DNA of 64,000 nt from an uncultured Acidimicrobiales bacterium (GCA_937991435.1 CALKPY010000028.1:15924-79923); one strand, 5' to 3'. Shown: positions 1,245 through 22,337, counted from the stretch's first letter. Numbers and translations: made by a program. Notes: a model not told the origin generated them from the sequence alone.

Positions 1245-1560
1245 TGAATTCTCCTCAACACACCAGGGCGCAATCAGCCGACGACCAAGGCAATCATGGC
1301 CTTGATTGGCGGTTGCTTTCGTGCACGCCCATAGGCAATTACCCCTGCCTGTTGTGCCGGGGCCAAGAAACAGCGACCATGGGGTAGTGACAAGAGGGCT
1401 CCGCGGCGACCAATCGCGCACCACCGGCAGCTCCGCGCCTACCCAAAAAGGTGCACACAGCGATAGCGGCTCTGCCATCAGCCCACTCAGAGCGGGCTCG
1501 GGGCCGCGGCGAATTCTCACTCGGTACATCAAGGAACGCAAAGGACTCTTTGGCGGCAAC

Positions 1561-8790: not shown

Positions 8791-9401
8791 GAACCCGAAG
8801 TGTCAAACAAGCTCTTGGCGCCACCGTTGCGGTTGCTATCGCGGCGCTGATCGCCGTCGGGCTTGTCGCGTTGGCTCTCGTAGTACAAAGGACCAACACT
8901 GGCGCCGACCCAATGGCGTCGTTCACACAAGTTCCTGCTGTGCCAGACGATGTGCAAGCGCTAATCACGTGGCTCCCTGACGGGGAGCTCGCACGCCGGG
9001 TTGAACCAACGACCCGAGAAGCAGTAGGGGCCGCATGGGCTCGCGGGTGGCACCGGCTCGACGTTGCGCAGCGCACGCACGACTCTGCCGGAATTGAGAC
9101 CTGGTTTGTCGGCGCACTGCCAGAGCAGATCGCTGCTTCCGTCGGCGAGACCCAGGTGCGGTCGAGCGTGACGCAGTTTGGCCACACCATGCAGATCACC
9201 TTCTATTCGCTCGACGGATCCATCATCGGGCTGGAGTCGATGAGCGACATCGAACGCGCAGTCGAATCCGGACCGAGTCGTCGGTCGGTCGAACGGTTGC
9301 AAGCAGTACTGGTACTGTCAGACGGCAACTGGAGGGTGCGCCACCTCACTGCCCTTCCTACTTCGTCAACCGACAAGCCAACATTCTCGGAACCTACGTG
9401 A
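8787..9401 (+). CDS. Membrane-anchored hypothetical protein, NTF2/SnoaL-like extracytoplasmic domain (tentative)
   Basis: The start overlaps the upstream stop as ATGA. The TM helix is ATVAVAIAALIAVGLVALALVV. The C-terminus ...AVLVLSDGNWRVRHL resembles the NTF2-like segment in the tail of the 4229..7513 protein. Confidence 0.6.
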   Translation: MRTRSVKQALGATVAVAIAALIAVGLVALALVVQRTNTGADPMASFTQVPAVPDDVQALITWLPDGELARRVEPTTREAVGAAWARGWHRLDVAQRTHDSAGIETWFVGALPEQIAASVGETQVRSSVTQFGHTMQITFYSLDGSIIGLESMSDIERAVESGPSRRSVERLQAVLVLSDGNWRVRHLTALPTSSTDKPTFSEPT

Positions 9402-10972
9402 CCACGCCCGAATCTTCGTCGCTCAACATCGAAGCCTTTGCCTCGGTCAGTCACGAGCTGCGCGCACCGCTGCACGCCATCGTGGGATTGTCTGAGCTTC
9501 TTCTCGACCGAGAGCTCAGCGACGAAAACCGAGAGCTCGCCGAAGGAATCCATCGCGAGGGCGAAGCTCTGCGAATCATCATTGACGACCTGCTGGACCT
9601 GTCCAAAATCAACGCCGGACAGATGCGCCTCGTCGTTCAACCACTCGCACCTCGCGCTGTCGTCGACGAAGTGCTCTCGATGTTTCTGCCTCAGGCCCAA
9701 ACACGCGGGCTTGCGCTGCAAACAACCGTCGACGAACGAGTTCCACGGTCGGTTCGCGCCGACCGATTTCGGCTACGCCAAGTCGTCGTCAACCTTGTCT
9801 CCAACGCTGTCAAATACACCACCTCGGGTGGGGTGCAGATTCATGTTGACGCTCCCGAATCAGATCGCCTGACCTTCGAAGTCGCAGACACCGGACCGGG
9901 GATCCCCGACGGTGCACTACCCGGACTGTTCGACCCCTTTCAGCAGGCACGTGATCGAGACCGAACCCAAGGCACAGGTCTTGGGCTCTCGATTTGTCAA
10001 CGGTTAATCGACCTCATGGGCGGAACCTTGACTCTCGACACCTCGCCAGCTGGCACCACGTTTCGTATCGAGATACCTGTCGAACCAACCGCGACTACCC
10101 CTGTACAGAAACGAGACCTTCTCAGCAGCGGACCGCATGGGCGCGTTCTCGTAGTTGATGACACGCAGGTCAATCGACTCGTAGCCATTTCACAACTCGA
10201 GCGGCTCGGACACCACGCCACGGCCGTGTCGAGCGGACACGAGGCACTCCAGAAACTCGAAAACGAGCACTTCGACGTTGTGCTCATGGATTGGCATATG
10301 CCAGATCTCGACGGGCTCGATACCGCCCGTGAATATTTTGAACGAGCCCGCAGCCGAAAGGCCGAGCCCATCCCGTTGATCATGATGACAGCGAGCGTGT
10401 CAGCCGAGGCCCGCGAAACCTGCCTCAAGGCCGGCATGTCTGACTTCCTCCCGAAACCGGTCAACCTCGACAGCCTCGCGACCTGTCTCAGCCAATGGAT
10501 CACCGGGGTCCCGACCGAGCCAGCCGAGACCTCGACTGACATCGATGGGGTGTCGCAACCTGCGTCGGTCGACCGTTTGGTCATCGATCGCATGATCAGC
10601 GACCTCGGGTCCGATGCGCCAGTTATTGCGGTCATCGACGCCTTTATTGCTGACTCCGCAGTGCGACGATCAGATTTGACCCGAGGCGACAACACAGAAC
10701 TCGCCGCCCGTGCCGCCCATACGTTCAAGTCGACCGCCGCTCTTCTCGGAGCAACCGGCCTATCCGAAACCTGCGCCGAGATCGAATCTCACTACCGAAA
10801 CGGCGAGGCCGCAGCCGCGGCAGCCCCCGCGATCGTGAGCTTGTTCGAAGGTCAGCTCGATGCTGCCGTGACAGAACTGAGGCAGATTCGCGACGGGCTC
10901 GCTAACGCTTCGAGCAGCTCAGACGCTGACCAAGAACCATCAACGTCAGAGACAAACGAGGAAATTCTATGA
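9398..10972 (+). CDS. Cytoplasmic hybrid histidine kinase (DHp-CA-REC-HPt) with no recognisable input domain
   Basis: The start overlaps the upstream stop as GTGA. The H-box SHELRAPLHAIVGLSELL sits at residue ~18. CA motifs are NLVSNAVKYT, DTGPGIP and GTGLGLSI. The REC domain shows VLVVDD...DVVLMDWHMPDLDG...LPKPV. The HPt motif is AAHTFKSTAALLGA. There is no TM or PAS segment. Confidence 0.9.
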   Translation: MTTPESSSLNIEAFASVSHELRAPLHAIVGLSELLLDRELSDENRELAEGIHREGEALRIIIDDLLDLSKINAGQMRLVVQPLAPRAVVDEVLSMFLPQAQTRGLALQTTVDERVPRSVRADRFRLRQVVVNLVSNAVKYTTSGGVQIHVDAPESDRLTFEVADTGPGIPDGALPGLFDPFQQARDRDRTQGTGLGLSICQRLIDLMGGTLTLDTSPAGTTFRIEIPVEPTATTPVQKRDLLSSGPHGRVLVVDDTQVNRLVAISQLERLGHHATAVSSGHEALQKLENEHFDVVLMDWHMPDLDGLDTAREYFERARSRKAEPIPLIMMTASVSAEARETCLKAGMSDFLPKPVNLDSLATCLSQWITGVPTEPAETSTDIDGVSQPASVDRLVIDRMISDLGSDAPVIAVIDAFIADSAVRRSDLTRGDNTELAARAAHTFKSTAALLGATGLSETCAEIESHYRNGEAAAAAAPAIVSLFEGQLDAAVTELRQIRDGLANASSSSDADQEPSTSETNEEIL

Positions 10973-11502
10973 AGGGCATCATTTTCAACGCTGTCGAGTC
11001 GGCAGTCACCGATCTGTACTCGGCTGACACTTGGGACGACCTTCTCGACGCGGCTGGCCTCGATGGCGACTACACATCGATTGGCACCTACGACGACGAA
11101 GAGTTGCTCAAGCTTGTCGGCGTCGCGGTAGAAGCGACCGGCGAAGACCCAGCAACCCTGATTCGGACCCTCGGGACCAAAGCGTTTACGCACCTTGCGA
11201 CACGCCACCCAGAGTTCGTCGAAGGGGTTTCCGATACACGCTCGTTCTTACGAACGGTCGACGAAATCATTCATCCTGAGGTCATGAAGCTTCATCCCGA
11301 CTCGACTCCGCCGCGGTTCCGCTATGAAGACCTCGAAGACGGCACGCTGCGAATGACCTATGAATCCAAGCGCAAACTCGGTCTACTTGCCGAAGGCCTA
11401 ATCTTGGGTGCCGGCGACTGGTTCGGAGAAAAGGTCTCGATCGCCACCGTCTCGGGCTCGGGCGAAGAAGTCACCGTGTATGACTTGTCGTTCGAGCCGT
11501 AG
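10969..11502 (+). CDS. H-NOX (haem nitric oxide/oxygen binding, HNOB) domain protein
   Basis: The start overlaps the upstream stop as ATGA, and GAGGA lies 7 nt upstream. The N-terminus is MKGIIFNAVESAV. The proximal-His region is VDEIIHPEVMKLHPDSTPPRF. The haem-propionate motif Y-x-S-x-R appears as MTYESKRKL. At 177 aa it is the typical stand-alone H-NOX size. Confidence 0.85.
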   Translation: MKGIIFNAVESAVTDLYSADTWDDLLDAAGLDGDYTSIGTYDDEELLKLVGVAVEATGEDPATLIRTLGTKAFTHLATRHPEFVEGVSDTRSFLRTVDEIIHPEVMKLHPDSTPPRFRYEDLEDGTLRMTYESKRKLGLLAEGLILGAGDWFGEKVSIATVSGSGEEVTVYDLSFEP

Positions 11503-11507
11503 TCGAC

Positions 11508-12419
11508 GTGACCAAACGTGACGACGGCGATGATGCCGATCAGCGTCTAGAGCGCTTAGAGCGTCGTCTCAAACGGGCTCAGAGCGCTCGGCTCGAAGCC
11601 GAGACTATTGCCGACCGACGCATGCGCGAGCTCTACCTCAGCAACCTGGAACTCGACGAACGCGTCGCGGCCAGAACAAGGGACCTTGAGCTGGCGGTAG
11701 CCGAGCTCGAATCCACCTCGTCGGCCGCCGCAGGGTTCCTTGCGAACCTGAGCCACGAAATGCGCACGCCGCTCAATGGCATTATCGGCATGCTCGAGTT
11801 GCTGCCCAGCCATGTCAACGGCGAGCAAGGCCGTCAATACCTCGACACTGCGCTCGAATCGAGTCGCACTCTCAACGCCCTCGTCTCGCGACTTATCAGC
11901 GCCGCTGAGGTCGGAACCACGAGCGCCCACGACCGATCACCGTGGCCACTTGGCGTCATCGCGGAGTCGATCGACGATTCGTGGAGGTTGCCGTGCCTGT
12001 CCAAAGGACAGCTTCTCACTATTCGGGTGGTCGGCTCTGACGGCACGACTGTCAACGTTCCTTCGGTACTGCTGCTGCAGACGGTTCGGGAATTGATGAG
12101 CAACGTCGTCACGCACGCAGATGCCGGTGTCGTGACGATCGACATACGACTTGAACCGCCGACCGACACAGAACCAGCACCGATGCTGCACCTAACGATC
12201 ACTGATCCGGGACCAGGCTTTGACGTCACGCACGAGGCCGACCTACTCGAATCTGTGGCGCGCGCCGACACCACATCGACACGTGCAGGTGGCGGGCTCG
12301 GCTTGGGGCTCTATCTCGCTCACGACAGCGTGCGGCGGTCCGGGGGTCGAATGGAGATCGTGAGCGGTACAGGACAACCAACCGCGATTGATATACGAAT
12401 CCCAGCCACAAACAGCTGA
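11508..12419 (+). CDS. Cytoplasmic histidine kinase (coiled coil-DHp-CA), candidate H-NOX-associated kinase
   Basis: The GTG start lies 5 nt after the H-NOX stop. The N-terminus is a charged coiled coil (LERLERRLKRAQSARLEAE...). The H-box is SHEMRTPLNGIIGMLELL, and CA motifs are DPGPGF and GGGLGLGLYL. There is no TM or sensor domain. Confidence 0.88.
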   Translation: MTKRDDGDDADQRLERLERRLKRAQSARLEAETIADRRMRELYLSNLELDERVAARTRDLELAVAELESTSSAAAGFLANLSHEMRTPLNGIIGMLELLPSHVNGEQGRQYLDTALESSRTLNALVSRLISAAEVGTTSAHDRSPWPLGVIAESIDDSWRLPCLSKGQLLTIRVVGSDGTTVNVPSVLLLQTVRELMSNVVTHADAGVVTIDIRLEPPTDTEPAPMLHLTITDPGPGFDVTHEADLLESVARADTTSTRAGGGLGLGLYLAHDSVRRSGGRMEIVSGTGQPTAIDIRIPATNS

Positions 12420-12479
12420 TCGACCCTCAAAATTGGGGGCAATGTATCAACTTGTGCTGTTAGCTGCCGAAAGTAACAA

Positions 12480-13694
12480 GTGTCCGTACCGAACCAACTG
12501 CCCCGTCGAGTCGGCCTGATTACCGCATTCCCGCCCGGTCGAAACAGTCTCAACGAATTTGGCTTCCACCTCGTGAGCCATATGGCCGAGAACCCGCAAC
12601 TCGACCGCGTGGTTGTGTTTGCCGATGAGACCGACGCCGGTCCCCCGCAGCCGATTCCCGGCACCGAGGCTGTCGTCTGCTGGAAGTTCAACGATCTAAC
12701 GAATCCACTTCGTCTGATTCGAGCAGTACGACGATCCAAGGTCGACGCGGTTCTCGTCAACCTGCAATTCGCAACCTTTGGCGACAGCAAGGTCGCCGGC
12801 GGTCTGGGACTTCTGGCTCCCGCCCTACTCAAGCGAATGGGCATTCCCACCGGGGTGATCTTGCACAATCTGGTCGACAACGTCGATATGCAAGATGCCG
12901 GATTCGCATCGAGCAAGTTGATGGCCAAGATCATGAACACCGCCGGTGAAATGCTGACCCGCACGATTCTGCAAGCCGACTACGTCGCCCTCACGATTCC
13001 TCGCTACGTCGAGTTACTCCGGGACAAGTACGGCGCTACTAACGCACTGCTGACGCCCCACGGGAGCTTTGAGGAGATCGACGAACCGTCATTCGGTGTT
13101 CCTGCCGACGGCCCACGTCGCATTTTGGCATTTGGCAAATTCGGCACCTATAAGACCGTCGACATTCTCGTCGAGGCCTACCGCCTGCTCATCGAACGGG
13201 GCTACCACGACCTTGAACTCGTGATTGCCGGGACCGACAGCCCGAACTCACCCGGCTATCTCGCCAATGTCGCGAGCGGTTGCGCCGACCTCGAATCTGT
13301 CACGTTCACCGGATACGTCGAAGAAGCGGACGTAGCGGGGCTGTTCGAGACTTCGGCAATCACCGCGTTTCCGTATACGAGCACGACTGGGTCTTCAGGC
13401 GTCTTGCACCAAGCCGGTTCGTATGGCCGCGCTGCTGTGCTTCCTCAGATCGGCGACTTCGTTGAGGTCATCGAAGAAGAAGGCTTTGTGGGCGTCTACT
13501 TTGAGCCGGGAAGCGCCAAAGGGTTGGCTGACGCGCTGGCCGCGGCGCTCGATGACCCCGAAATGATTGCGGAACACGGTCGACGCAACTATCTGGCCTC
13601 GACGGGTATCCCCATGAGTGAAGTCATCGACTGGCACCTGCTGCATCTTGGCGAAGCGATGAGTTCTCAAGTTCGCACGACCGCGACCCCATGA
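12480..13694 (+). CDS. Glycosyltransferase, GT4-type (GT-B fold)
   Basis: The 404-aa ORF has a GTG start. The C-terminal half carries the typical GT4 pattern (TSTTGSSGVLHQAGSYGRAAVLPQIGDFVEVIEEEG). Confidence 0.8.
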   Translation: MSVPNQLPRRVGLITAFPPGRNSLNEFGFHLVSHMAENPQLDRVVVFADETDAGPPQPIPGTEAVVCWKFNDLTNPLRLIRAVRRSKVDAVLVNLQFATFGDSKVAGGLGLLAPALLKRMGIPTGVILHNLVDNVDMQDAGFASSKLMAKIMNTAGEMLTRTILQADYVALTIPRYVELLRDKYGATNALLTPHGSFEEIDEPSFGVPADGPRRILAFGKFGTYKTVDILVEAYRLLIERGYHDLELVIAGTDSPNSPGYLANVASGCADLESVTFTGYVEEADVAGLFETSAITAFPYTSTTGSSGVLHQAGSYGRAAVLPQIGDFVEVIEEEGFVGVYFEPGSAKGLADALAAALDDPEMIAEHGRRNYLASTGIPMSEVIDWHLLHLGEAMSSQVRTTATP

Positions 13695-15028
13695 CGGTGA
13701 ACACCCGCGACGACGGAACGGAAACCGCTCCCGGGTCAGCGGCGCCAACGACAGACGCCACTGGATCACGGGCGTTGATGGCCGGCGGGTCGGTGCTGGC
13801 ACTGGCAATGTTTGCGGCCAACGGCGGCAATTACCTGCTCAACGTCGTGCTCGGACGATGGCTTGAACCAGCAGAGTTCGCCGATGCGAATCTGATGGTC
13901 ACCCTCATGCTGCTCGTCACTGCAATCGCGGTCAGCCTGCAGCTGATTGGCGCCAAGTTCACCGGGCAATATGAAATCAGCGGCACCGACGATCAGACCC
14001 GTGCCCTCGCTCGGGGCCTTAGCCGACTGGCGATCGGCTCAGGCGTTGTCCTCGCCGCGCTCTTGGCTGTAGGCGCCCCCGTTTGGCAGAACCTGTTCAA
14101 CACCGAATCATCGTGGCCGTTTGTGATCCTTGGCATCGGCATGCCCGCGTATCTTCTTCAGGCCGTCGGGCGAGGCGTGTTACAAGGGCAACTCGCCTTT
14201 TCGAAACTGGCGTCGACGTTCATCTCCGAAATGGTCGTGCGAGTCGTTCTGGGAGTGGCTCTCGTCGCGATGGGTTATGGCGTGATCGGCGCTACAGCAG
14301 CGCTCACTGCGTCGTTCGTTGCTACCTGGTTAGCCGTGCGTCGAGCTCTCGGCTGGAAGAAATCAACCGTGCAAGCTGATGTTCCCGCGGCGGTCCGTTC
14401 GTACGCAGGTCCCGTCGGCGTGCTGCTGCTCGGGCAAATCATCATCAACAACGGTGATGTACTCATCTCGAAGAACGGACTCGACCCAGAGACGGCTGGC
14501 ATCTACGCCGCAGTGGCTCTCGTCGGCCGAGCGGTGTTCTTCCTCAGCTGGTCAGTAGCGACGACCTTGTTTCCCGCAGCCGCTCAACGCAACGAAGCTG
14601 GCGAAGACTCCAGTGGCCTGCTGCATGCAGGCCTGGGTGTTGTCGCAGTACTCGGTGTCGTCGCAGTGCTCGCCGCTCACTTTCTCGGTGGAACGGTTCT
14701 GGGTCGAGTCTTTGGACCCGAGTACGCCGGCGTTTCGGGGCACCTGAGCCGATACGCACTCGCAACTGCGGTCTTTGCCATGGCAAACCTCGTCGTGTCG
14801 CATCACCTTGCACTTGGTCGGCTGCGTGAAGCGCTGATCATGGTGGCCGGAGCGGTCGTTCAGACCGTGCTACTTCTCACCGCCGCCCAGACAATCGAAG
14901 CTCTTATCGAAGCGCAGGTGTATGCCATGGCCATCTTGTTCATCGCTGTTGCTGCGAGCCACGCTGATCGGCTACGCGCTGGCCACCCGAAATTCACCGA
15001 CCCCACGAACTCGAGAATGACATCGTGA
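13691..15028 (+). CDS. Polysaccharide/oligosaccharide flippase (MOP superfamily, Wzx-like)
   Basis: The start overlaps the upstream stop as ATGA. The 445-aa protein is very hydrophobic with many TM helices. The N-terminal pattern ...GNYLLNVVLGRWLEPAEFADANLMV is typical of polysaccharide biosynthesis flippases. Confidence 0.75.
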   Translation: MTVNTRDDGTETAPGSAAPTTDATGSRALMAGGSVLALAMFAANGGNYLLNVVLGRWLEPAEFADANLMVTLMLLVTAIAVSLQLIGAKFTGQYEISGTDDQTRALARGLSRLAIGSGVVLAALLAVGAPVWQNLFNTESSWPFVILGIGMPAYLLQAVGRGVLQGQLAFSKLASTFISEMVVRVVLGVALVAMGYGVIGATAALTASFVATWLAVRRALGWKKSTVQADVPAAVRSYAGPVGVLLLGQIIINNGDVLISKNGLDPETAGIYAAVALVGRAVFFLSWSVATTLFPAAAQRNEAGEDSSGLLHAGLGVVAVLGVVAVLAAHFLGGTVLGRVFGPEYAGVSGHLSRYALATAVFAMANLVVSHHLALGRLREALIMVAGAVVQTVLLLTAAQTIEALIEAQVYAMAILFIAVAASHADRLRAGHPKFTDPTNSRMTS

Positions 15029-15810
15029 CCGCACCCACGTCTTCATCGACCTATCGCTCATGGGCAGACACGCCGAACACCGGTCCAATTGCTTGGTCGG
15101 TCGTGATACCGACATACAACGAATCAGAGCGTGTCGTTCCGACCATTGGAGCCATTGCCGCACATCTAAGTTCGCTCGGCTCCCCATGGGAACTCATCGT
15201 CGCTGACGACGGTTCAACCGACGACACTGTCGAAGTGCTCAACGCACTTGGGCTTGCGAACTTGCAGGTACTGGTCGCCGAACAAAATGGCGGCAAAGGA
15301 AGCGCAGTCCGCCGTGGCGTGCTGGCAGCGCAAGGCGATGTAATCCTCTTCGCCGACGCAGACCAAAGCACCCCGATCGAACAATTCGCATCGCTGCTGT
15401 CGTGCATTGAAGGTGGCGCCGACGTGGCCATTGGTTCGCGAGCAGCTGCAGGCGCACACGTGTCCAACAAGTCGATGGCGCGCAAGGTGTTTAGCAAAGG
15501 CCTGAATCTGCTGGTGCGATTCGGGTTCGGCGTGCATCACGCCGATACGCAATGCGGCTTCAAGATGTTCACCACCACGGCTGGGCGTCAGCTGTTCCAG
15601 AGGCAGCTGATCGACCAGTTCTCCTTCGATCTCGAAATCTTGTACCTGGCGAAGAAATTCGGCATGCGGGTCGACGAAGTTCCTGTTGAATGGATCGATG
15701 CACCCGGATCGACTGTCGACCCAGCAAAGGTCGCAGTCGAATTCTTGAAAGACATGGCAGTCATTCGCTGGAACGACCTGCGTGGCCGCTATCGCCGCGA
15801 CAATCGATGA
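15025..15810 (+). CDS. GT2 glycosyltransferase, polyprenyl-phosphate sugar synthase-like (DPM/DPG synthase family)
   Basis: The start overlaps the upstream stop as GTGA. Motifs are WSVVIPTYNESERV, ADDGSTDDT, GKGSAVRRG and FADADQSTP (DxD). Confidence 0.85.
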   Translation: MTAPTSSSTYRSWADTPNTGPIAWSVVIPTYNESERVVPTIGAIAAHLSSLGSPWELIVADDGSTDDTVEVLNALGLANLQVLVAEQNGGKGSAVRRGVLAAQGDVILFADADQSTPIEQFASLLSCIEGGADVAIGSRAAAGAHVSNKSMARKVFSKGLNLLVRFGFGVHHADTQCGFKMFTTTAGRQLFQRQLIDQFSFDLEILYLAKKFGMRVDEVPVEWIDAPGSTVDPAKVAVEFLKDMAVIRWNDLRGRYRRDNR

Positions 15811-15901
15811 GGCGCACCGAAGCACAGCCGCCACCGCTCCTGCATTTGCCAAAACAGCCCACAACAAACGTGATCAGGAAAGAATCTGGCAGGATCCAAC
15901 A

Positions 15902-16219
15902 ATGAATATCGAGACTCAGCACCATGACAACGACAGCGCTGGCCTTGTGCTGTCTGGGCGCTTCGATGCCTTCGAGACCGATGCCTTTCGCGCAACGATT
16001 GACCCGCTGTTGGCGAGCGAGTCGACGGCCAAGGTGAGGGTGACAATGGCCGACGTCAACTTCATTGACTCATCGGGGCTCGCTGAACTGGTGAGGTCAA
16101 TGAAGCGGGCACGCGAGGCCGGCGGCGATATCGAGCTGCATAACCCGTCAGACCCGGTGCGCGTCATTCTCGAGCTGACTCGGCTCGACCTGGCCTTTAC
16201 CATCACATCTGCCGAGTGA
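15902..16219 (+). CDS. STAS-domain anti-sigma-factor antagonist-like protein
   Basis: ORF 15782..16219 is trimmed to the ATG at 15902, with AGGA upstream. It carries the motif NFIDSSGLAELV, including the conserved phosphorylatable Ser context (DSSG). Confidence 0.8.
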   Translation: MNIETQHHDNDSAGLVLSGRFDAFETDAFRATIDPLLASESTAKVRVTMADVNFIDSSGLAELVRSMKRAREAGGDIELHNPSDPVRVILELTRLDLAFTITSAE

Positions 16220-17820
16220 CGACGGCCGATCCACCGTTCGATGCCCTGACGTCGGTCACCGGCGCGTTGGTCGACGCGAACGATCGGCTGCTTGAGCTCA
16301 TCACGCTTACCGGCACCGCCTCTACGTCACTTGACGAGGGCGAATTGCTCGACACTCTCATCGAACCCACGATCGCGCTCTTACATCTCGACGGTTGCCG
16401 ATTGTCGGCCAAGATCGAGCGAACCTGGGGCACCCCGCCGACCGTCGACCTTGAGTCGACCGCCCATCAATGGAAGTCAAACCGCAACGTCGCCGACGAA
16501 TCGATCGAAATGGTCGTTTGGCGCACAGCTGACCCATTTGGCACCGCCGACGCCAAGCTGCTCGAAGCGATTGCCAACCTTGCAGGCAACGCCATCGGCA
16601 TGGCTCGCATGCACGCCGAGGGGTTAGCCCAGGCTGCCATCGGCCAAGAACATGCCGCTGCCGCGAAATTGGCATCGGCAGCGCTTCCCGATCCTCTGAT
16701 TCCTCCGACCGTCCCCCACGCCACGATTTGGGCCGCCGCTCGACCGGCACGCACCACCGGCGGCGACCTGTTCGTCTGGGCTGAACTCGACAACCAGTTG
16801 TGGTTTGCGGTCGGCGATGTTTCGGGCAAGGGACTTCCGGCCGCAGTTCTGATGACGGTGTGCACAACATCGATTGAGACCGCTATTCAACGTCACGGTG
16901 AGCAGGGGCCTGTCGCAGTCCTCGACTCGGTGACCCGGTCAACGCACCGACGTTTGTCAGATGCGGGCATGTTCCTCACGATCGCTCTCGGGCGTTTCTG
17001 CCCAACGACACGCACCGTAGAGATGGCCAACCACGGGCATAGTCCGATCGTATTTCGACAAGCGCACGAGGTCCGAAGAATCTCGGCCACCGCTCCCCCA
17101 ATTGGTGTGCTTGTCGACGCCCGCGCTGAGCTTGAAAGCTTTGTGGTGCAACCCCACGACCTTCTCGTCATCGCCACCGACGGACTCACCGAACAAATAG
17201 ATGCAGCCGGGAACTTGTTTGGGGAATCGCATTTCGACGCGCTCGTCGCATCGTTGGAACTCAGTGACGCAGATCATGTCGGGACATCGATACTCGCCAC
17301 CGTCGACACTCATCGAGGCACGACAGCTCAGTCTGACGACCAGACCCTGATGGTGATCGGCTTCCATTGTGAACGAACACGGCCCCTTTTGATTGATGCG
17401 ACGAACCAAGGCGTACGAGCACTTGGTCCGTGGCTTTCTGAACACCTCGCAATCCTCGCCAACGGTCGATTCGAATCCCGTCTCGGCGAAATCGAATTGG
17501 CGGTGCACGAGATTGCGATGAACATCGTCGATCATGCGTTGGCCGATGCTCCAAGCTCTAGGTTCGCGTTAACACTGACCGTTGACGACGACGAGCTCGT
17601 GGCCGAATTTCGCGACCGGGGATCTGCGTTTGGGGTTGCGCCGTCGCGCCCCGACCCGGAACACCCGCAGGTCGGCGGCTACGGACTCATGATTGTTGAG
17701 CAGCTTGCGTCTCGCATCGAGCGCAGCCGTATCGACGATCTCAACATTTCTCGACTGTGGTTTTCGAGCCAAGGCTCTATTCCCGCCGCTTCAGGCCGAA
17801 AGGAAGCACATGACGCTTGA
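16216..17820 (+). CDS. GAF-like / PP2C (SpoIIE) phosphatase / RsbW-type serine kinase (GHKL) fusion protein
   Basis: The start overlaps the upstream stop as GTGA. The PP2C core shows GGDLFVW...WFAVGDVSGKGLPAAVLM...IATDGLTE...SDDQTLMVIGF. The C-terminal kinase shows HEIAMNIVDHA, FRDRGSAFG and GGYGLMIVEQL. Confidence 0.85.
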   Translation: MTTADPPFDALTSVTGALVDANDRLLELITLTGTASTSLDEGELLDTLIEPTIALLHLDGCRLSAKIERTWGTPPTVDLESTAHQWKSNRNVADESIEMVVWRTADPFGTADAKLLEAIANLAGNAIGMARMHAEGLAQAAIGQEHAAAAKLASAALPDPLIPPTVPHATIWAAARPARTTGGDLFVWAELDNQLWFAVGDVSGKGLPAAVLMTVCTTSIETAIQRHGEQGPVAVLDSVTRSTHRRLSDAGMFLTIALGRFCPTTRTVEMANHGHSPIVFRQAHEVRRISATAPPIGVLVDARAELESFVVQPHDLLVIATDGLTEQIDAAGNLFGESHFDALVASLELSDADHVGTSILATVDTHRGTTAQSDDQTLMVIGFHCERTRPLLIDATNQGVRALGPWLSEHLAILANGRFESRLGEIELAVHEIAMNIVDHALADAPSSRFALTLTVDDDELVAEFRDRGSAFGVAPSRPDPEHPQVGGYGLMIVEQLASRIERSRIDDLNISRLWFSSQGSIPAASGRKEAHDA

Positions 17821-18148
17821 GACCTCTTCGCACGAGATTCGCATTGACACGATCGTGTTGGGTGACCGGCTCGACGCGCTACGGGCGGTGGAATTGCGTG
17901 AACAGATCACCGCGGCGGTCGCCGGCGGCACCGTTCGCATCATCGTCGATTTGTCGACCACCCAATTTGTCGACAGTGCAGGGCTTGCAGCGCTGGCCAA
18001 AGGCATGAAGGACTGTCGCTCAGGCGGCGGCGATCTGAGGGTTGTTTCGTCGCAGCACCCAGATGCCGCCCGCGTGTTCGCTCTCACGCGCTTCGATCAA
18101 GTGTTCGTGATGGCCGAATCCGCCGATGACCTGTTGCGAACCTGGTAG
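17810..18148 (+). CDS. STAS-domain anti-sigma-factor antagonist-like protein (second copy)
   Basis: ORF 17693..18148 is trimmed to the ATG at 17810, preceded by GAAAGGAAG. It overlaps the upstream gene by 11 nt. It carries the motif QFVDSAGLAALA. Confidence 0.8.
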   Translation: MTLETSSHEIRIDTIVLGDRLDALRAVELREQITAAVAGGTVRIIVDLSTTQFVDSAGLAALAKGMKDCRSGGGDLRVVSSQHPDAARVFALTRFDQVFVMAESADDLLRTW

Positions 18149-18154
18149 TCCGCA

Positions 18155-18529
18155 GTGGCTCACCTTCTCGTCATCGACGATGACCCCGTCAGCTTGCTTG
18201 TGGCTGAACATATTTTGCGCGGCGCCTCTCATGATGTCAGCACAGCAACAGGCGCACAGTCCGCGCGTGCAGCGCTGCGCGATGCCAACGCCGTGATCGA
18301 TCTCGTTGTGTGCGACGTGCATATGCCGGGCGAGTCCGGCTTCGACCTGCTCGATTCGTTGACCCGAAGCGAAACCCCAGTGCCACCTTTTCTTATGCTT
18401 ACCGGTGTTCGAGATGAGGCCGAACGAGGTAATAGCCGTGCCGATTCCGCCGCTGGCTACTTGACCAAGCCAGTTCGGTCAGAAGATCTTCTCAACGCGG
18501 TCGAGTCAATACTCCAAAGCTCGTTCTGA
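18155..18529 (+). CDS. Single-domain response regulator (CheY-like receiver only)
   Basis: The GTG start lies 6 nt after the STAS stop. Receiver motifs are LLVIDDD, DLVVCDVHMPGESG and YLTKPV. At 124 aa it has no output domain. Confidence 0.85.
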   Translation: MAHLLVIDDDPVSLLVAEHILRGASHDVSTATGAQSARAALRDANAVIDLVVCDVHMPGESGFDLLDSLTRSETPVPPFLMLTGVRDEAERGNSRADSAAGYLTKPVRSEDLLNAVESILQSSF

Positions 18530-18607
18530 GTCGAGTTGCCGGGAACGGTCGCAACCCTGCTCGTCTCGGACTGTTCCCGTCTTCGATCCGCGCAGTAGCG
18601 TCACAGC

Positions 18608-19363
18608 ATGGATCTTCGACTTGATGGCAAAACAGCACTCGTAACGGGCGGTTCGCGTGGCATCGGCAAAGCCATTGCCAAGTCCTTCGTCGACTCTGGA
18701 GCTCGGGTCATGATCACGAGCCGCAAAGCCGAAAGCTGCGAAGCGACCGCGAACGAGATTGGTTGCGACTACGAAGCTGGTCACGTGGGCAAGCCCGAAG
18801 ACGCCGAACGGGTCGTCGATGCTTGCTTGGAGCGTCTCGGCGGGGTCGACATTCTCGTCAACAATGCCGCTACGAATCCGTATGCGGGTCCAACGATCGA
18901 CGTCGATGTTCCGAGGTGGAACAAGACACTAGAGGTCAACCTGACAGCGCCGCTCATGTGGAGCCAGCTGACATGGAACAAGTGGCAGAAACAAAACCCG
19001 GGCGGCTCGATCATCAACATCTCATCGGTCGGTGGACTCAGCACCAACCCAGCACTAGGCGTGTACGACGTGACCAAGGCTGCGCTTATTCATCTGACCA
19101 AGCAGCTCGCCGCCGAACTCGCCCCCAACGTACGAGTCAACGCCCTCGCTCCGGGTCTCGTAAAAACCGATTTCGCCAAGTACCTGTGGGAAGACGGCAA
19201 GGGTGACGAGGTCGCCGAGATCTATCCCCTCAAGCGTCTCGGCGAGCCCGAAGACATTGCGTCGGCCGCGACCTGGCTCGCCGCCGACAGCGGTCGCTGG
19301 ATCACTGGGCAGACAATCGTGCTCGACGGTGGCGGATTGATCGCCTTCCCCCGCGGCCAGTAG
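18608..19363 (+). CDS. Short-chain dehydrogenase/reductase (FabG-like)
   Basis: Motifs are TGGSRGIGKAIA, NNAA and YDVTKAA (YxxxK). The protein is 251 aa. Confidence 0.88.
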   Translation: MDLRLDGKTALVTGGSRGIGKAIAKSFVDSGARVMITSRKAESCEATANEIGCDYEAGHVGKPEDAERVVDACLERLGGVDILVNNAATNPYAGPTIDVDVPRWNKTLEVNLTAPLMWSQLTWNKWQKQNPGGSIINISSVGGLSTNPALGVYDVTKAALIHLTKQLAAELAPNVRVNALAPGLVKTDFAKYLWEDGKGDEVAEIYPLKRLGEPEDIASAATWLAADSGRWITGQTIVLDGGGLIAFPRGQ

Positions 19364-19367
19364 TCGA

Positions 19368-19392
19368 GCGACGCCCCGCCGCGTCGTTAATT
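19368..19392 (+). terminator. Possible weak intrinsic terminator after the SDR gene
   Basis: The stem is CGACGC (19369-19374) paired with GCGTCG (19381-19386), with loop CCCGCC, followed by TTAATT. The stem is short, so this is tentative. Confidence 0.3.
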
Positions 19393-19430
19393 GACGCGTC
19401 AGCACTACGTCGGGTCCATAGGCTCTGGCA

Positions 19431-22337
19431 ATGGCCGAACCCGCATCGACCGACATCCCCGAGTGGCGCTATAACGCTGACCTCGCGCAAGGCATCGAAC
19501 GCAGGTGGCAAGACCACTGGGACGAGCACAAAACGTTCGAGACGCCGAACCCATCAGGTCCGCTCGCCGACCCCGAAGCTCTGGCCGCTCGCGGCGAAAA
19601 ACTATTCGTGCTCGACATGTTTCCGTACCCCTCGGGAAGCGGACTACACGTCGGCCACCCGCTCGGCTACATCGGCACCGACTGTTACAGCCGGTTCGAG
19701 CGCATGCGGGGCCGCAACGTGCTCTACACGATGGGCTTCGATGCCTTTGGCCTGCCCGCAGAACAGTTCGCGGTACAGACCGGCCAGCACCCGGCAATCA
19801 CCACCAACGACAACATTGCCAACATGCGTCGCCAGCTTCGCCGGCTGGGGCTCAGCCACGACAAGCGCCGCAGCATTTCGACCACTGATCCGGCCTACTA
19901 CCGCTGGACTCAATGGATCTTCAGGACCGTGTTCGAAGCGTGGTACGACCCCGACGCACAAAAAGCGCGACCCATCTCTGAACTGATCGACGAGTTCACC
20001 GAAGGAACCCGCGCTCTACCCTCAGGCGGGCAGTGGAGCGACCTCGACAGCGCGGAACAAGCAGCGGTGCTCGACGACTACCGGCTCGCGTACGCAGCAG
20101 AAGCGCCCGTCAACTGGTGTCCGGGCCTGGGCACCGTTGTCGCCAACGAAGAAGTCACCGCTGACGGCCGTAGCGACCGCGGGAACTTCCCGGTATTCAA
20201 ACGCAACATGCGCCAATGGATGATGCGCATAACGTCGTACGCCGATCGTCTGCTCGATGATCTCGAGCTGCTCGACTGGACCGACGCAATCAAGGCAATG
20301 CAGCGCAACTGGATCGGCCGCTCCGAAGGCGCCGCGGTTACGTTTGCATCTGAAGCAGGCCCAATCAGCGTCTTCACGACCCGACCCGACACCCTGTTTG
20401 GCGCCACGTTCATGGTGCTGGCTCCCGAGCACGAACTCGTCTCGGCGCTGACCACCGCCGACCGGGCCGAAGCTGTGGCCGCGTATCAGGCCGCTGCCGA
20501 CGCCAAGAAAGACATCGAGCGCCAAGACGAAACGCGCGAAAAGACCGGCGTATTCACCGGAAGCACCGCCACCAACCCCGTTACCGGCGAGCAGATCCCG
20601 GTATGGATCGCCGACTATGTACTCATGGGCTACGGCACCGGCGCCATCATGGCTGTGCCGTGTGGCGACCAGCGTGACTTTGAGTTCGCTCGCAAGTTCG
20701 GGCTCGACATTCCGGCCATTCAACAACCGCCAAGGACGTGGTTCGAAGAACACCACATCGCCCCCAGCCTCGACACGGCCACATGGCCAATGGCCTTTGT
20801 CGGCAATGCCCCGTACGTCAACTCGAGCAACGCAGGCTCATTAGAGCATGCCAAAGGCGCCTTGACGACTTGGGTCGAAGGTTCACCACCGCCCAACGTT
20901 CTCGATCTGAATGGGCTGGCCGACGTACCCACCGGTGTCGCCACCACCAATGCCTGGTTGAGCGCCAACGATCACGGCGAAGCGACCATCAACTACAAGT
21001 TGCGCGATTGGTTGTTCAGCCGTCAGCGTTACTGGGGCGAACCGTTCCCGATCGTCTATGACGAGAACGGGACCGCGCACAGCCTGCCCGAAGACATGCT
21101 TCCGGTGCTGCTGCCCGAGACCGACAACTTTTCGCCGCGGACCTTCGACGCTGACGACGCAGCTTCCAACCCAGAGAGCCCACTCGACCGGCTCGATGAT
21201 TGGGCAAACGTTGAGCTCGACCTGGGCGACGGGCCAAAGATGTACCGCCGCGACACCAATGTCATGCCACAGTGGGCCGGCTCTTGCTGGTACGAAATGC
21301 GCTACCTCGACCCGACCAATGAAGAACGATTCGTCGACCCCACAGTCGAGCAGTACTGGATGGGACCACAGACCGACGTGCGCCCAGACCATCCCGGTGG
21401 CGTCGACCTCTACGTCGGCGGCGTTGAACACGCCGTTTTGCACCTGCTCTACGCCCGTTTCTGGCACAAAGTGCTGCACGACCTGGGCCACGTCAGCTCG
21501 CGCGAACCGTATGCCCGACTGTTCAACCAGGGCTACATCTTGGCGGCTGCGTTCAAAGATGAACGTGAGATCTATGTCGAAGCGACCGAGGTCGACGAGC
21601 GCGATGGCGAGTGGTTCCTCGGCGATGTACCCGTCAGCCGCGAGTGGGGCAAGATGGGCAAGAGCCTGAAAAATGCTGTCTCGCCCGACGACATGTACGA
21701 CACCTACGGCGCCGACACCCTGCGTCTCTATGAGATGGCCATGGGGCCGCTCGACGCGTCGCGACCGTGGGAAACCCGCGACGTCGTGGGCATGTACCGC
21801 TTCCTTCAGCGAGTGTGGCGCAACGTCGTCGATGAAGACACCGGCGAGTTGTGCACAACCGACGACGAGCCCGATGCTGAAACGACCCGCCTGTTGCACG
21901 TCACGATCGACTCGGTCAGCACCGAGATGTCGCACCTGCGTTTCAATACCGCCATCGCCAAGCTCATCGAGCTCAACAATCACCTCACCAAGCTCGACGC
22001 TGTCCCCAAGGCCATCGCCGAGCCGTTGGTTCTCATGCTGGCGCCGCTTGCCCCTCACGTTGCTGAAGAGTTGTGGTTGCGCTTGGGTAACACTGAGACA
22101 CTGACCTACGAGTCGTTCCCTGTCGCCGATCCTGCGCTTCTCATCTCTGATGAGGTCGAATACCCCGTGCAGGTCAACGGCAAGGTTCGCGCTCGCATCG
22201 TCGTCGCTGCCGATGCACCGAGTGACGCAATCGAAGCCGCTGCTCTCGCCGAAGAAAACGTGGCCCGCACCCTCGACGGGGCGACCCCAAAGAAAGTCAT
22301 CGTTGTACCCGGGCGCATGGTCAACATCGTCGTGTGA
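19431..22337 (+). CDS. leuS: Leucine--tRNA ligase
   Basis: The 968-aa protein has a HIGH-type motif (HVGHPLGY), a KMSKS-type motif (KMGKSLKN), and class I LeuS signature stretches ([17 protein letters not shown]). Confidence 0.97.

What the first reader, a model, noticed from the sequence alone, without database searches (positions are those of the whole stretch)
15902..18529. Partner-switching module without a sigma factor: STAS, GAF-PP2C-RsbW-kinase fusion, STAS, lone receiver
Two STAS genes, both keeping the phosphorylatable D-S-x-G context (DSSGL, DSAGL), flank a single 534-aa protein. That protein carries the opposing activities that normally act on STAS proteins. One is a SpoIIE/PP2C phosphatase (GGDLFVW...DVSGKGLPAA...DDQT). 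The other is an RsbW-type GHKL serine kinase (HEIAMNIVDHA, GGYGLMIV). A GAF-like N-terminus precedes them. A single-domain REC follows 6 nt after the second STAS. No sigma or anti-sigma target is encoded nearby. Fused phosphatase-kinase proteins exist (Pseudomonas HsbR, Mycobacterium Rv1364c). This one has a GAF input, two separate STAS substrates, and a detached REC that could dock onto the HPt domain of the hybrid kinase 5 kb upstream.
Basis: partly seen in the sequence, partly recalled or inferred. Interest (0 to 1): 0.6.

Follow-up and report, generated by a model that had tools for sequence, protein, structure and literature searches.

The report
Phosphorelay-linked STAS switch beside glycan genes
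A marine actinobacterium carries a real serine-phosphorylation switch: two small STAS proteins, one enzyme that can both phosphorylate and dephosphorylate them, and a lone phospho-receiver, always next to surface-sugar genes. It is a new variant of known biofilm-type switches, not a new kind of system.

Summary
STAS1 (15902-16219), a 534-aa PP2C plus RsbW-type kinase protein (16216-17820), STAS2 (17810-18148) and a single-domain receiver (18155-18529) all pass Pfam cut-offs. The residues needed for catalysis or phospho-acceptance are intact and invariant in orthologues.

The N-terminal "GAF" is supported only at fold level, as a reduced GAF-like domain followed by a 47-residue linker helix.

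New here:
- The fusion is derived. About 50 close relatives encode the phosphatase (~385 aa) and the kinase (~135 aa) as adjacent, often overlapping genes. The window's protein and one 49 %-identical fused relative form a clade nested among unfused forms.
- The cassette GT4–Wzx–GT2–STAS1–PP2C–kinase–STAS2–REC is conserved in uncultured marine Acidimicrobiales.
- The upstream sensor block is interchangeable: H-NOX plus two kinases, REC-HPt, HPt alone, or nothing.
- No sigma factor lies in the 64-kb window or in the relatives' flanks. The rest of the genome could not be searched, and two "sigma-less" precedents (HsbR, Slr1861) later proved to bind sigma factors encoded elsewhere.

Best reading: a phosphorelay-controlled partner switch that governs the adjacent surface-glycan pathway, analogous to SypE/SypA and HptB–HsbR–HsbA. 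I rate it a new variant of a known kind, of moderate interest.

The parts
15902..16219 (+). STAS1, single-domain anti-sigma-antagonist-type protein (105 aa). Candidate phospho-serine is Ser57 (codon 16070-16072) in FIDSSGL.
   Evidence: Pfam STAS and STAS_2 plus NCBIfam TIGR00377, all above cut-off. Aligns with RsbV 6m36_B and TM1442 1sbo across the D-S-x-G-L motif. F54, D56 and S57 are invariant in 14 STAS1/STAS2 orthologues.
16216..16683 (+). N-terminal regulatory region of the fusion. It comprises helix 8-37, helix 41-55, a four-stranded reduced GAF-like sheet (60-103) and a 47-residue linker helix (110-156).
   Evidence: AF2 model has pLDDT 89.6. Foldseek hits are GAF domains but weak, E 5e-3 to 0.1. 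No Pfam hit. The helices are as conserved as the catalytic domain (0.63 against 0.58), while the sheet scores 0.33.
16693..17367 (+). PP2C/SpoIIE-type serine phosphatase domain (about residues 160-384).
   Evidence: Pfam SpoIIE E 1.6e-37. Metal-binding D184, D201, D322, D374 and D375 are invariant in 23 homologues. Fold matches are Rv1364c 3ke6 (E 4e-21) and SiaA 6k4e (TM 0.87).
17368..17388 (+). Fusion junction (residues 385-391, HCERTRP). In relatives the phosphatase gene ends here and the kinase gene starts.
   Evidence: Alignments. In L085 the junction is ...TFAP* with an ATGA overlap. An independently assembled contig with 7 SNPs and no indels covers the junction.
17389..17766 (+). RsbW/SpoIIAB-type GHKL serine kinase domain (about residues 392-517).
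   Evidence: Pfam HATPase_c_2 E 4e-15. E432, N436, D439, H440, D467, G469, G488, Y489 and G490 are invariant in 7 orthologues. The profile aligns with RsbW 6m36_A (E 2e-7), Rv1364c and SpoIIAB.
17810..18148 (+). STAS2, a second single-domain STAS protein (112 aa). Candidate phospho-serine is Ser56 (codon 17975-17977) in FVDSAGL. It has a conserved C-terminal tail ending in ...SW.
   Evidence: Pfam and NCBIfam above cut-off. Aligns with TM1442 and SpoIIAA. It forms an orthologous group distinct from STAS1, about 30 % identical to it. It is the most conserved signalling part, 59-74 % identity across loci.
18155..18529 (+). Stand-alone receiver (REC, 124 aa). Phospho-acceptor is Asp54 (codon 18314-18316).
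   Evidence: Pfam Response_reg E 1.3e-19. D8, D9, D10, D54, T83 and K105 are invariant in 7 orthologues.
12480..15810 (+). GT4 glycosyltransferase (12480-13694), Wzx-like flippase (13691-15028) and polyprenol-phosphate-sugar-synthase-like GT2 (15025-15810). This conserved upstream trio is the likely output pathway.
   Evidence: Pfam. For the GT2, the best NCBIfam similarities are AglJ, ArnC, dolichyl-P-hexose transferase and PpgS, all below cut-off. The trio sits directly upstream of STAS1 in L003, L006, L007 and L085-L088.
9398..12419 (+). Optional input block: hybrid HisKA-HATPase-REC-HPt kinase (9398-10972), H-NOX (10969-11502) and a sensor-less histidine kinase (11508-12419).
   Evidence: Pfam. 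The block is present in L007, L085 and L088. It is reduced to REC-HPt in L006 and to HPt in L003, and it is absent in L086 and L087.

Best explanation
This is a working phospho-serine partner-switching module placed under two-component control and dedicated to the neighbouring surface-glycan genes.

Proposed mechanism, step by step:
1. The 534-aa protein is probably a dimer. A reduced GAF-like N-domain and a long linker helix control its PP2C domain. Its C-terminal RsbW-type kinase domain does the opposite reaction.
2. Both activities act on Ser57 of STAS1 and Ser56 of STAS2.
3. The stand-alone REC is phosphorylated on Asp54. The donor is an HPt domain where one is encoded: here, the hybrid kinase fed by the H-NOX-associated kinase.
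4. The phosphorylated REC shifts the kinase/phosphatase balance in trans. In HsbR and SypE the built-in receiver does this in cis.
5. The unphosphorylated STAS protein(s) then bind a target. That target is most likely a component of the co-encoded pathway: GT4, Wzx, polyprenol-phosphate sugar synthase and the GT-C-like membrane protein.
6. Glycan output therefore follows the gas or redox signal after translation.

Shown here:
- the domain identities and intact catalytic and acceptor residues;
- strict conservation of the eight-gene cassette;
- the derived nature of the fusion;
- absence of a local sigma factor.

Inferred only:
- who phosphorylates the REC, and that the REC acts on the fusion;
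- the sign of the regulation;
- the identity of the STAS targets;
- that the two STAS proteins have different partners.
For: - Domain calls are above curated cut-offs.
- PP2C metal ligands are invariant in 23 homologues.
- Kinase N, G1 and G2 boxes are invariant and align with RsbW and SpoIIAB.
- The D-S motif is invariant in 14 STAS sequences. They form two distinct orthologous groups.
- The REC acidic pocket, D54, T83 and K105 are invariant.
- The best structural match is the Rv1364c RsbU+RsbW pair, 3ke6, E 4e-21.
- GT4-Wzx-GT2-STAS1-PP2C-kinase-STAS2-REC is found in seven independent related loci with enough flank, while the sensor block varies.
- An HPt domain lies upstream in 6 of 8 loci with enough flank (5 of 7 relatives plus the window).
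- Gene junctions overlap or are 6 nt or less apart, which suggests coupled translation.
- STAS2 (59-74 % identity) and STAS1 (54-64 %) evolve as slowly as the glycan enzymes (58-80 %). They evolve much more slowly than their own kinase and phosphatase (37-51 %). This fits a conserved extra partner.
- The N-domain's conserved parts are its helices, not its sheet. That matches the coiled-coil-linker control described for RsbU-type phosphatases, including GAF-PPM proteins and Rv1364c (PMC12143880).
- Precedents for STAS switches that act on polysaccharide synthesis without a sigma factor: SypE/SypA (PMC8256260, PMC12369376) and HenR/All4160 (PMC13555669).
- Precedent for HPt passing phosphate to a receiver that flips a PP2C-kinase protein: HptB-HsbR-HsbA (PMC6482189).
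Against: - There is no biochemical or expression evidence. The organism is an uncultured marine metagenome lineage.
- No test of any protein-protein contact was possible.
- Two loci (L086, L087) keep the REC with no HPt or kinase nearby, so the local phosphorelay is not obligatory.
- The PP2C already has its own N-terminal regulatory domain, so the REC need not act on it.
- RsbW-type domains fused to PP2C can still sequester sigma factors encoded elsewhere (HsbR/CrsR with RpoS, PMC6482189). The genome could not be searched for SigB/SigF-type sigma factors.
- Gene neighbourhood alone does not prove that the glycan enzymes are the direct targets.
Confidence: 0.55

Rival explanations
1. It is a canonical anti-sigma partner switch whose sigma factor is encoded elsewhere. 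The kinase domain would sequester a SigB/SigF-type sigma factor. Dephosphorylated STAS1 and/or STAS2 would release it. The glycan genes would merely be co-transcribed or belong to that regulon.
For: The kinase profile is closest to RsbW and SpoIIAB anti-sigma factors and to NCBIfam RsbA_anti_sig. Both STAS proteins pass the 'anti-sigma factor antagonist' model. Fused PP2C-kinase proteins do bind sigma factors encoded elsewhere: HsbR/CrsR bind RpoS (PMC6482189), and Slr1861 of the sigma-less icfG cluster binds SigC (PMC12329169).
Against: No Sigma70-family gene occurs in the 64-kb window or in the 10-kb flanks of relatives. The module's only constant neighbours are glycan genes. There are two distinct conserved STAS paralogues and a REC in the position where canonical operons carry the sigma gene.
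Confidence: 0.25
2. The information flows the other way. The GAF-like domain or another cue sets STAS phosphorylation. One STAS protein, probably STAS2, which is translationally coupled to the REC, then binds the REC or the HPt. That modulates the phosphorelay, so the partner switch is an input to two-component signalling rather than its output.
For: The STAS2 and REC genes overlap or lie 6 nt apart in most loci, and up to about 40 nt apart in the others. STAS2 has a conserved C-terminal tail that STAS1 lacks. The REC persists where no HPt is nearby. From general knowledge, RsbRST-type modules coupled to two-component or GGDEF outputs are known; this was not tested here.
Against: The REC has no output domain, and no DNA-binding response regulator is conserved in the cassette, so a downstream effector would be missing. 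The GAF-like sheet is poorly conserved, which argues against a conserved ligand input.
Confidence: 0.12
3. It is an annotation or assembly artefact, or a decaying module. The 534-aa ORF would come from a frameshift error that joined two genes, or one activity would be dead.
For: Relatives have separate genes that overlap by 4 nt, so a single indel would fuse them.
Against: A separately assembled contig from a public run, differing by 7 SNPs per kb, has the same frame with no indel. A 49 %-identical relative from another sample is also fused, and the two form a 100/98-supported clade. All catalytic residues of both domains are intact.
Confidence: 0.03

Closest known systems
Vibrio fischeri SypE/SypA (with HnoX-HahK and the SypF HPt upstream)
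   Same: A dual serine kinase/PP2C phosphatase sets the phosphorylation of a single-domain STAS protein encoded inside a polysaccharide locus. It acts below transcription and has no known sigma target. It is controlled by a receiver fed from a hybrid-kinase HPt, with an NO-sensing H-NOX and its kinase among the inputs (PMC8256260, PMC12369376).
   Different: SypE's domain order is kinase-REC-PP2C, with the receiver built in. Here the order is GAF-like-PP2C-kinase, the receiver is a separate gene, and there are two STAS paralogues. The phylum is different (Actinomycetota). The glycan genes are a GT4/Wzx/GT2 set, not the 18-gene syp locus. No sequence-level orthology was shown.
Pseudomonas aeruginosa HptB-HsbR-HsbA (and Shewanella CrsR-CrsA)
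   Same: The PP2C-then-kinase order in one polypeptide is the same. An HPt protein passes phosphate to a receiver, which flips kinase to phosphatase. The STAS protein is the switch output, with non-sigma partners (FlgM, HsbD) (PMC6482189).
   Different: HsbR carries the receiver at its N-terminus where this protein has a GAF-like domain. There is one STAS protein, not two. HsbR's kinase domain was later shown to bind RpoS. It has no link to glycan genes.
Mycobacterium tuberculosis Rv1364c (PDB 3ke6)
   Same: It is the best sequence and fold match. It is an actinobacterial sensor domain-PP2C-RsbW-kinase polypeptide with a linker helix before the phosphatase (PMC12143880).
   Different: Rv1364c has a PAS domain, not a GAF-like domain, and carries its STAS domain fused at the C-terminus. 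It has no receiver. It is associated with SigF. Identity is only about 26 %.
Anabaena HenR / All4160 / Alr3423
   Same: A receiver-controlled SpoIIE phosphatase and an RsbW-like kinase set the phosphorylation of a STAS domain that directly controls a polysaccharide glycosyltransferase, not a sigma factor (PMC13555669).
   Different: There the STAS domain is fused to the glycosyltransferase, the receiver is fused to the phosphatase, and the genes are dispersed. Here every part is a separate, clustered gene apart from the PP2C-kinase fusion itself.
Two-STAS partner switches: Chlamydia RsbU/RsbW/RsbV1/RsbV2 and the Synechocystis icfG cluster
   Same: There is one kinase, one PP2C and two STAS phosphoproteins, with no sigma gene in the cluster (PMC8256260, PMC11619594, PMC12329169).
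   Different: In both systems a sigma factor encoded elsewhere is the reported target (sigma-66, SigC). Neither has a receiver or a glycan-gene linkage, and the enzymes are not fused.

Membership tests
SpoIIE/RsbU-type PP2C (PPM) serine phosphatases (PF07228) | Profile match above the gathering score | tested here: met
   129.7 bits against a cut-off of 25, residues 192-383.
SpoIIE/RsbU-type PP2C (PPM) serine phosphatases (PF07228) | Metal-coordinating Asp residues (GGD, GDVxGxG, DG, DD) | tested here: met
   D184, D201, D322, D374 and D375 are present and invariant in 23 homologues.
SpoIIE/RsbU-type PP2C (PPM) serine phosphatases (PF07228) | Phosphatase activity on a phospho-STAS substrate | not testable with these tools
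   Needs biochemistry.
RsbW/SpoIIAB-type GHKL serine kinases / anti-sigma factors (PF13581) | Profile match above the gathering score | tested here: met
   56.4 bits against a cut-off of 27.4, residues 402-505.
RsbW/SpoIIAB-type GHKL serine kinases / anti-sigma factors (PF13581) | ATP-binding N box (E..N), G1 box (DxG) and G2 box (GxG) | tested here: met
   E432/N436, D467/G469 and G488/G490 are invariant in 7 orthologues. They align with the same boxes of RsbW 6m36_A and SpoIIAB 1tid.
RsbW/SpoIIAB-type GHKL serine kinases / anti-sigma factors (PF13581) | Binds and inhibits a sigma factor | not testable with these tools
   No sigma gene is in the window or in the relatives' flanks. The whole-genome search was shut.
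Anti-sigma-factor antagonists, single-domain STAS (PF01740 / TIGR00377) | Profile match above the curated cut-off, for both proteins | tested here: met
   TIGR00377 scores 59.7 and 57.8 bits against a cut-off of 53.45. Pfam STAS scores 51.5 and 47.7 bits against 22.6.
Anti-sigma-factor antagonists, single-domain STAS (PF01740 / TIGR00377) | Conserved phosphorylatable Ser in D-S-x-G-L, aligned with SpoIIAA Ser58 / RsbV Ser56 | tested here: met
   Ser57 (STAS1) and Ser56 (STAS2). D-S is invariant in 14 orthologues. The G is replaced by A in two STAS1 orthologues.
Response-regulator receiver domain (PF00072) | Acidic pocket, phospho-acceptor Asp, and conserved Thr/Ser and Lys | tested here: met
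   D8-D10, D54, T83 and K105 are invariant in 7 orthologues. The score is 70.8 bits against a cut-off of 30.2.
GAF domain | Profile match to a GAF family (PF01590, PF13185, PF13492) | tested here: not met
   No hit for residues 1-190 even at E <= 1. Some distant homologues do carry Pfam GAF domains.
GAF domain | GAF fold (five- or six-stranded antiparallel sheet packed by helices) | tested here: inconclusive
   Nearly all top Foldseek hits are GAF domains, but with E 5e-3 to 0.1 and TM 0.5-0.6. The model has only four strands.
HsbR/CrsR family (REC-PP2C-kinase response regulators) | N-terminal receiver domain in the same polypeptide | tested here: not met
   The N-terminus is a GAF-like domain, and the receiver is a separate gene. 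It therefore works like HsbR but is not a member.
SypE family (kinase-REC-PP2C) | Domain order: N-terminal kinase, central REC, C-terminal PP2C | tested here: not met
   The order here is GAF-like, then PP2C, then kinase, with no internal REC.
Stressosome module (RsbR-RsbS-RsbT) | An RsbR-type protein with an N-terminal sensor domain fused to STAS | tested here: not met
   Both STAS proteins are single-domain, at 105 and 112 aa.

The most novel reading that the evidence does not exclude
The module is a truly sigma-independent, two-output partner switch. A free-standing receiver, charged by an H-NOX-controlled phosphorelay, acts in trans on a bifunctional kinase/phosphatase. The two anciently diverged STAS paralogues each have a different direct target. 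One would gate an enzyme or the flippase of a polyprenol-phosphate-sugar / GT-C surface-glycosylation pathway. The other would feed back on the REC/HPt relay. This would be a direct protein-level link from gas sensing to cell-envelope glycosylation in Actinomycetota.
Probability: 0.2. Interest if true: 0.65.

Novelty: new variant of a known kind. Interest (0 to 1): 0.42.

Why it matters
Partner switches that control something other than a sigma factor are known from only a few cases: SypA, HsbA, BtrV and All4160. In most of them the direct target is still unknown.

This cassette is compact, conserved and translationally coupled. The only constant neighbours of the switch are three glycan genes. 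That narrows the candidate targets to a handful of proteins and makes the question "what does a non-sigma STAS protein bind?" directly testable.

The cassette also shows natural variation in two respects. The kinase/phosphatase occurs both split and fused. The input ranges from H-NOX plus kinases to none. This is useful material for studying how such modules are wired.

It also adds an actinobacterial, probably marine, example of an H-NOX gene linked to envelope-sugar genes. The value is comparative and mechanistic. It does not reveal a new principle.

Tried and rejected
- **Own-genome search.** I tried to search the window's genome for sigma factors and further RsbW/STAS genes. The tool was shut. 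Earlier scan notes on this genome mention no sigma or anti-sigma pair.
- **GAF by sequence.** No Pfam hit. The fold search gave only weak GAF matches.
- **Promoter and terminator scan of 12300-19500.** Counts were at or below the shuffled expectation, so it gives no information on operon boundaries.
- **Assembly-artefact reading of the fusion.** Rejected.
- **Stressosome reading.** Rejected, because there is no RsbR-type multidomain STAS protein.
- **MlaB-like STAS accessory of the ABC exporter at 1306-4140.** Rejected. The mlaB model scores 22.9 bits against a cut-off of 90. tblastn also found no orthologue of the exporter in any related locus. However, only L086 and L087 hold the start of the cluster, and their first cluster gene is the 1094-aa membrane protein.
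- **SiaABCD-type switch.** Rejected. The SiaA hit covers the generic PP2C domain only (51 bits against 700), and the substrates are STAS, not DUF1987.
- **Same five-part string in other phyla.** I searched 80 more distant PP2C loci. The order STAS-PP2C-kinase-STAS-REC was found only in the Actinomycetota loci. Bacteroidota, Ignavibacteriota and Proteobacteria relatives show other orders, such as PP2C-STAS-kinase-PP2C-PP2C or PP2C-kinase-STAS.
- **RNA evidence.** Only DNA runs of a marine metagenome hold the sequence.


Full report
**1. What is there**

On the + strand, four tightly packed genes occupy 15902-18529.

| Gene | Coordinates | Size |
|---|---|---|
| STAS1 | 15902-16219 | 105 aa |
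| PP2C-kinase fusion | 16216-17820 | 534 aa |
| STAS2 | 17810-18148 | 112 aa |
| REC | 18155-18529 | 124 aa |

- STAS1 overlaps the fusion by 4 nt.
- The fusion overlaps STAS2 by 11 nt.
- The REC starts 6 nt after the STAS2 stop codon.
- The start codons agree with the N-termini of orthologues.

Pfam and NCBIfam confirm every domain call above curated cut-offs:
- STAS and the anti-sigma-antagonist model TIGR00377 for both small proteins;
- SpoIIE on residues 192-383 of the large protein (E 1.6e-37);
- HATPase_c_2 on residues 402-505 of the large protein (E 4e-15);
- Response_reg for the last gene.

**2. Are the parts competent?**

*Phosphatase.* The metal-binding aspartates D184, D201, D322, D374 and D375 are invariant in 23 homologues.

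*Kinase.* All of the following are invariant in seven orthologues:
- the N box (H431-E432...N436...D439-H440);
- the G1 box (D467-R-G469-S-A-F);
- the G2 box (G488-Y-G490).

A profile of these orthologues aligns box for box with RsbW (6m36_A, E 2e-7), Rv1364c and SpoIIAB.

*STAS proteins.* STAS1 Ser57 and STAS2 Ser56 sit in F-x-D-S-x-G-L. They align with the phospho-serine position of RsbV, SpoIIAA and TM1442. The numbering of the reference serines is from my own knowledge of SpoIIAA Ser58. F, D and S are invariant in all 14 orthologues examined.

*REC.* It keeps D8-D10, D54, T83 and K105 in all seven orthologues.

**3. The N-terminal region**

There is no Pfam hit on residues 1-190, even at E <= 1.

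AlphaFold2 models are confident: 84.9 pLDDT for the whole protein and 89.6 for residues 1-160. They show two helices (8-37, 41-55), four strands (60-103) and a 47-residue helix (110-156) that leads into the PP2C domain.

Foldseek on the whole model gives the Rv1364c RsbU+RsbW structure 3ke6 first (E 4e-21). Foldseek on the N-terminal model gives almost only GAF domains: cyanobacteriochrome, phytochrome, PDE5 and 3p01. Those matches are weak, with E 5e-3 to 0.1 and TM 0.5-0.6.

Conservation across 61 family members is high in the first helix and the linker helix (0.63). That is as high as in the catalytic domain (0.58). It is low in the sheet (0.33).

I read this as a reduced GAF-like dimerisation and transmission module, not a conserved small-ligand pocket. 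This fits the coiled-coil-linker control described for RsbU-type phosphatases, including GAF-PPM proteins and Rv1364c (PMC12143880).

**4. The fusion is derived**

A search of 5.8 billion proteins found the following:
- a near-identical copy (P0001);
- one fused relative at 49 % identity (P0002);
- roughly 50 proteins of about 376-418 aa that cover only the N-domain and the PP2C.

In all five of their contigs that I opened, a separate 131-151-aa HATPase_c_2 gene follows. It overlaps the phosphatase gene by 4 nt in four contigs and starts 2 nt after it in L003. The L085 junction is shown.

In a maximum-likelihood tree, the window's protein and P0002 form a clade (support 100/98). That clade is nested inside a 99/98-supported group of 13 unfused proteins. 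Two much more distant fused forms, P0052 and a Microbacterium protein, branch elsewhere.

The junction is not an assembly error. A contig assembled independently from a public marine-metagenome run covers it with 7 SNPs and no indel.

**5. Conserved neighbourhood**

tblastn of the window's operon proteins against related loci, together with the precomputed Pfam tables, shows one recurring order: GT4-Wzx-GT2-STAS1-PP2C-kinase-STAS2-REC. It occurs in L003, L006, L007 and L085-L088. Record titles, where given, name these MAGs as uncultured Acidimicrobiales or Actinomycetota.

The sensor block between the upstream membrane/Ig-like genes and GT4 varies from locus to locus.

| Sensor block | Loci |
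|---|---|
| Hybrid kinase-REC-HPt + H-NOX + kinase | window, L007, L085, L088 |
| REC-HPt only | L006 |
| HPt only | L003 |
| Nothing | L086, L087 |

More distant Actinomycetota loci look like this:
- L008, a more distant Actinomycetota MAG, has GT4-GT2-STAS1-PP2C-kinase-STAS2-REC. An EEP-family gene, two receivers and a PAS kinase follow.
- L009, a Friedmanniella MAG, has PP2C-kinase-STAS-REC-EEP.

Among 80 more distant PP2C loci from other phyla, the five-part order never recurs.

Identity to the window's proteins across the seven full cassette loci plus L001:

| Protein | Identity (%) |
|---|---|
| GT4 | 70-80 |
| GT2 | 63-76 |
| Wzx | 58-74 |
| STAS2 | 59-74 |
| STAS1 | 54-64 |
| REC | 41-54 |
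| Kinase | 40-50 |
| N-domain + PP2C | 37-51 |

The two STAS proteins are thus conserved like the glycan enzymes and far better than their own modifying enzymes. STAS1 and STAS2 are separate orthologous groups, about 30 % identical to each other. STAS2 carries a conserved C-terminal tail.

**6. Sigma factor**

No Sigma70-family domain was found among the ORFs of 170 aa or more that I scanned across the window. None is in the annotated 10-kb flanks of the relatives either. The operon is bounded upstream by a minus-strand gene and downstream by an SDR gene and leuS, so no sigma gene hides just outside it.

The rest of the genome could not be searched. The literature advises caution:
- HsbR and CrsR (REC-PP2C-kinase) bind RpoS, which is encoded elsewhere (PMC6482189).
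- The kinase Slr1861 of the two-STAS, sigma-less icfG cluster is the anti-sigma factor of SigC (PMC12329169).

**7. Mechanism proposed**

Best reading (confidence about 0.55): this is a phosphorelay-controlled partner switch that governs the adjacent glycan pathway.
- The GT2 resembles polyprenol-phosphate sugar synthases such as AglJ, ArnC and PpgS, although below cut-off.
- Together with the Wzx-like flippase, the GT4 and the upstream 1094-aa membrane protein, this suggests a lipid-linked surface glycosylation route.
- By analogy with HptB-HsbR-HsbA and SypF-SypE-SypA, REC~P would favour phosphatase over kinase.
- The dephosphorylated STAS protein(s) would bind their target.
- The sign of the regulation and the targets are inference only.

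Direct precedents for STAS switches acting on polysaccharide synthesis rather than on sigma factors are SypA (PMC8256260, PMC12369376) and the STAS-glycosyltransferase All4160, which works with the REC-PP2C phosphatase HenR (PMC13555669).

Rivals:
- a remote sigma target (0.25);
- reversed information flow, with STAS2 acting on the REC/HPt (0.12);
- an artefact or decaying module (0.03).

**8. Comparison and novelty**

The module works like SypE/SypA and HsbR/HsbA. It fails the defining architecture of both families, because it has no internal receiver and a different domain order. Its nearest relative by sequence and fold is Rv1364c, which differs in sensor domain, has a fused STAS domain and is linked to SigF.

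Sigma-less clusters, two-STAS sets, PP2C-kinase fusions and receiver control are each already known. The new elements are:
- this particular conserved combination;
- the trans-acting receiver;
- the strict linkage to a GT4/Wzx/GT2 trio;
- the interchangeable sensor block;
- its occurrence in marine Acidimicrobiales.

I rate it a new variant of a known kind, with interest about 0.4.

The earlier scan notes on the same cluster reached a similar picture for the H-NOX side. I re-derived the synteny and the domain calls independently. I add the derived nature of the fusion, the two-paralogue analysis and the caveat about remote sigma targets.

Noticed in passing
L003:5281-5889, L006:5270-6115 (against window 9398-10972): The hybrid kinase seems to have been whittled down in relatives. 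L006 keeps only REC-HPt (281 aa) and L003 only an HPt protein (202 aa), at the same position upstream of GT4. The HPt is therefore the most persistently retained part of the sensor block.
   Followed up: partly
L008:12189-13262 and L009:3391-4425: In the two most distant cassette-bearing loci (an Actinomycetota MAG and a Friedmanniella MAG), an Exo_endo_phos (EEP) family gene directly follows the REC. This is a possible alternative output. The window has no such gene.
   Followed up: no
window 1306-4140: tblastn found no orthologue of the 944-aa ABC exporter (with its extra C-terminal region) that opens the operon in any related locus. Only L086 and L087 hold the start of the cluster, and their first cluster gene is the 1094-aa membrane protein. 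L003 has only a 34 % match to the ATPase domain on the other strand. The exporter may be a lineage-specific addition.
   Followed up: partly
L001:9077-12274, L003:2053-5250, L085:19681-21173: A roughly 1,060-aa CotH/LTD-domain protein recurs within 10 kb of the cassette in three relatives, on varying sides and strands. The window has no counterpart between 1 and 30 kb.
   Followed up: no
L085:6750-7475 and 16869-19653; L087:6324-7530: GT4 is truncated or split in L085 (241 aa) and in L087 (264 + 133 aa). leuS is split in L085 (235 + 689 aa). These are probably metagenome assembly frameshifts, or possibly pseudogenes, in otherwise intact cassettes.
   Followed up: no
window 11508-12419: The H-NOX-associated histidine kinase gives a weak STAS_2 hit on residues 49-85 (E 5e-4, 20.6 bits against a cut-off of 29.2). 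It is probably spurious, because it overlaps the start of the HisKA helix.
   Followed up: no
L032, L034, L035, L038, L040 and others (Bacteroidota/Ignavibacteriota loci): Distant PP2C relatives in these phyla sit in a recurring, different array: STAS(-) ... PP2C-STAS-kinase-PP2C-PP2C. That is three paralogous phosphatases around one STAS/kinase pair.
   Followed up: no
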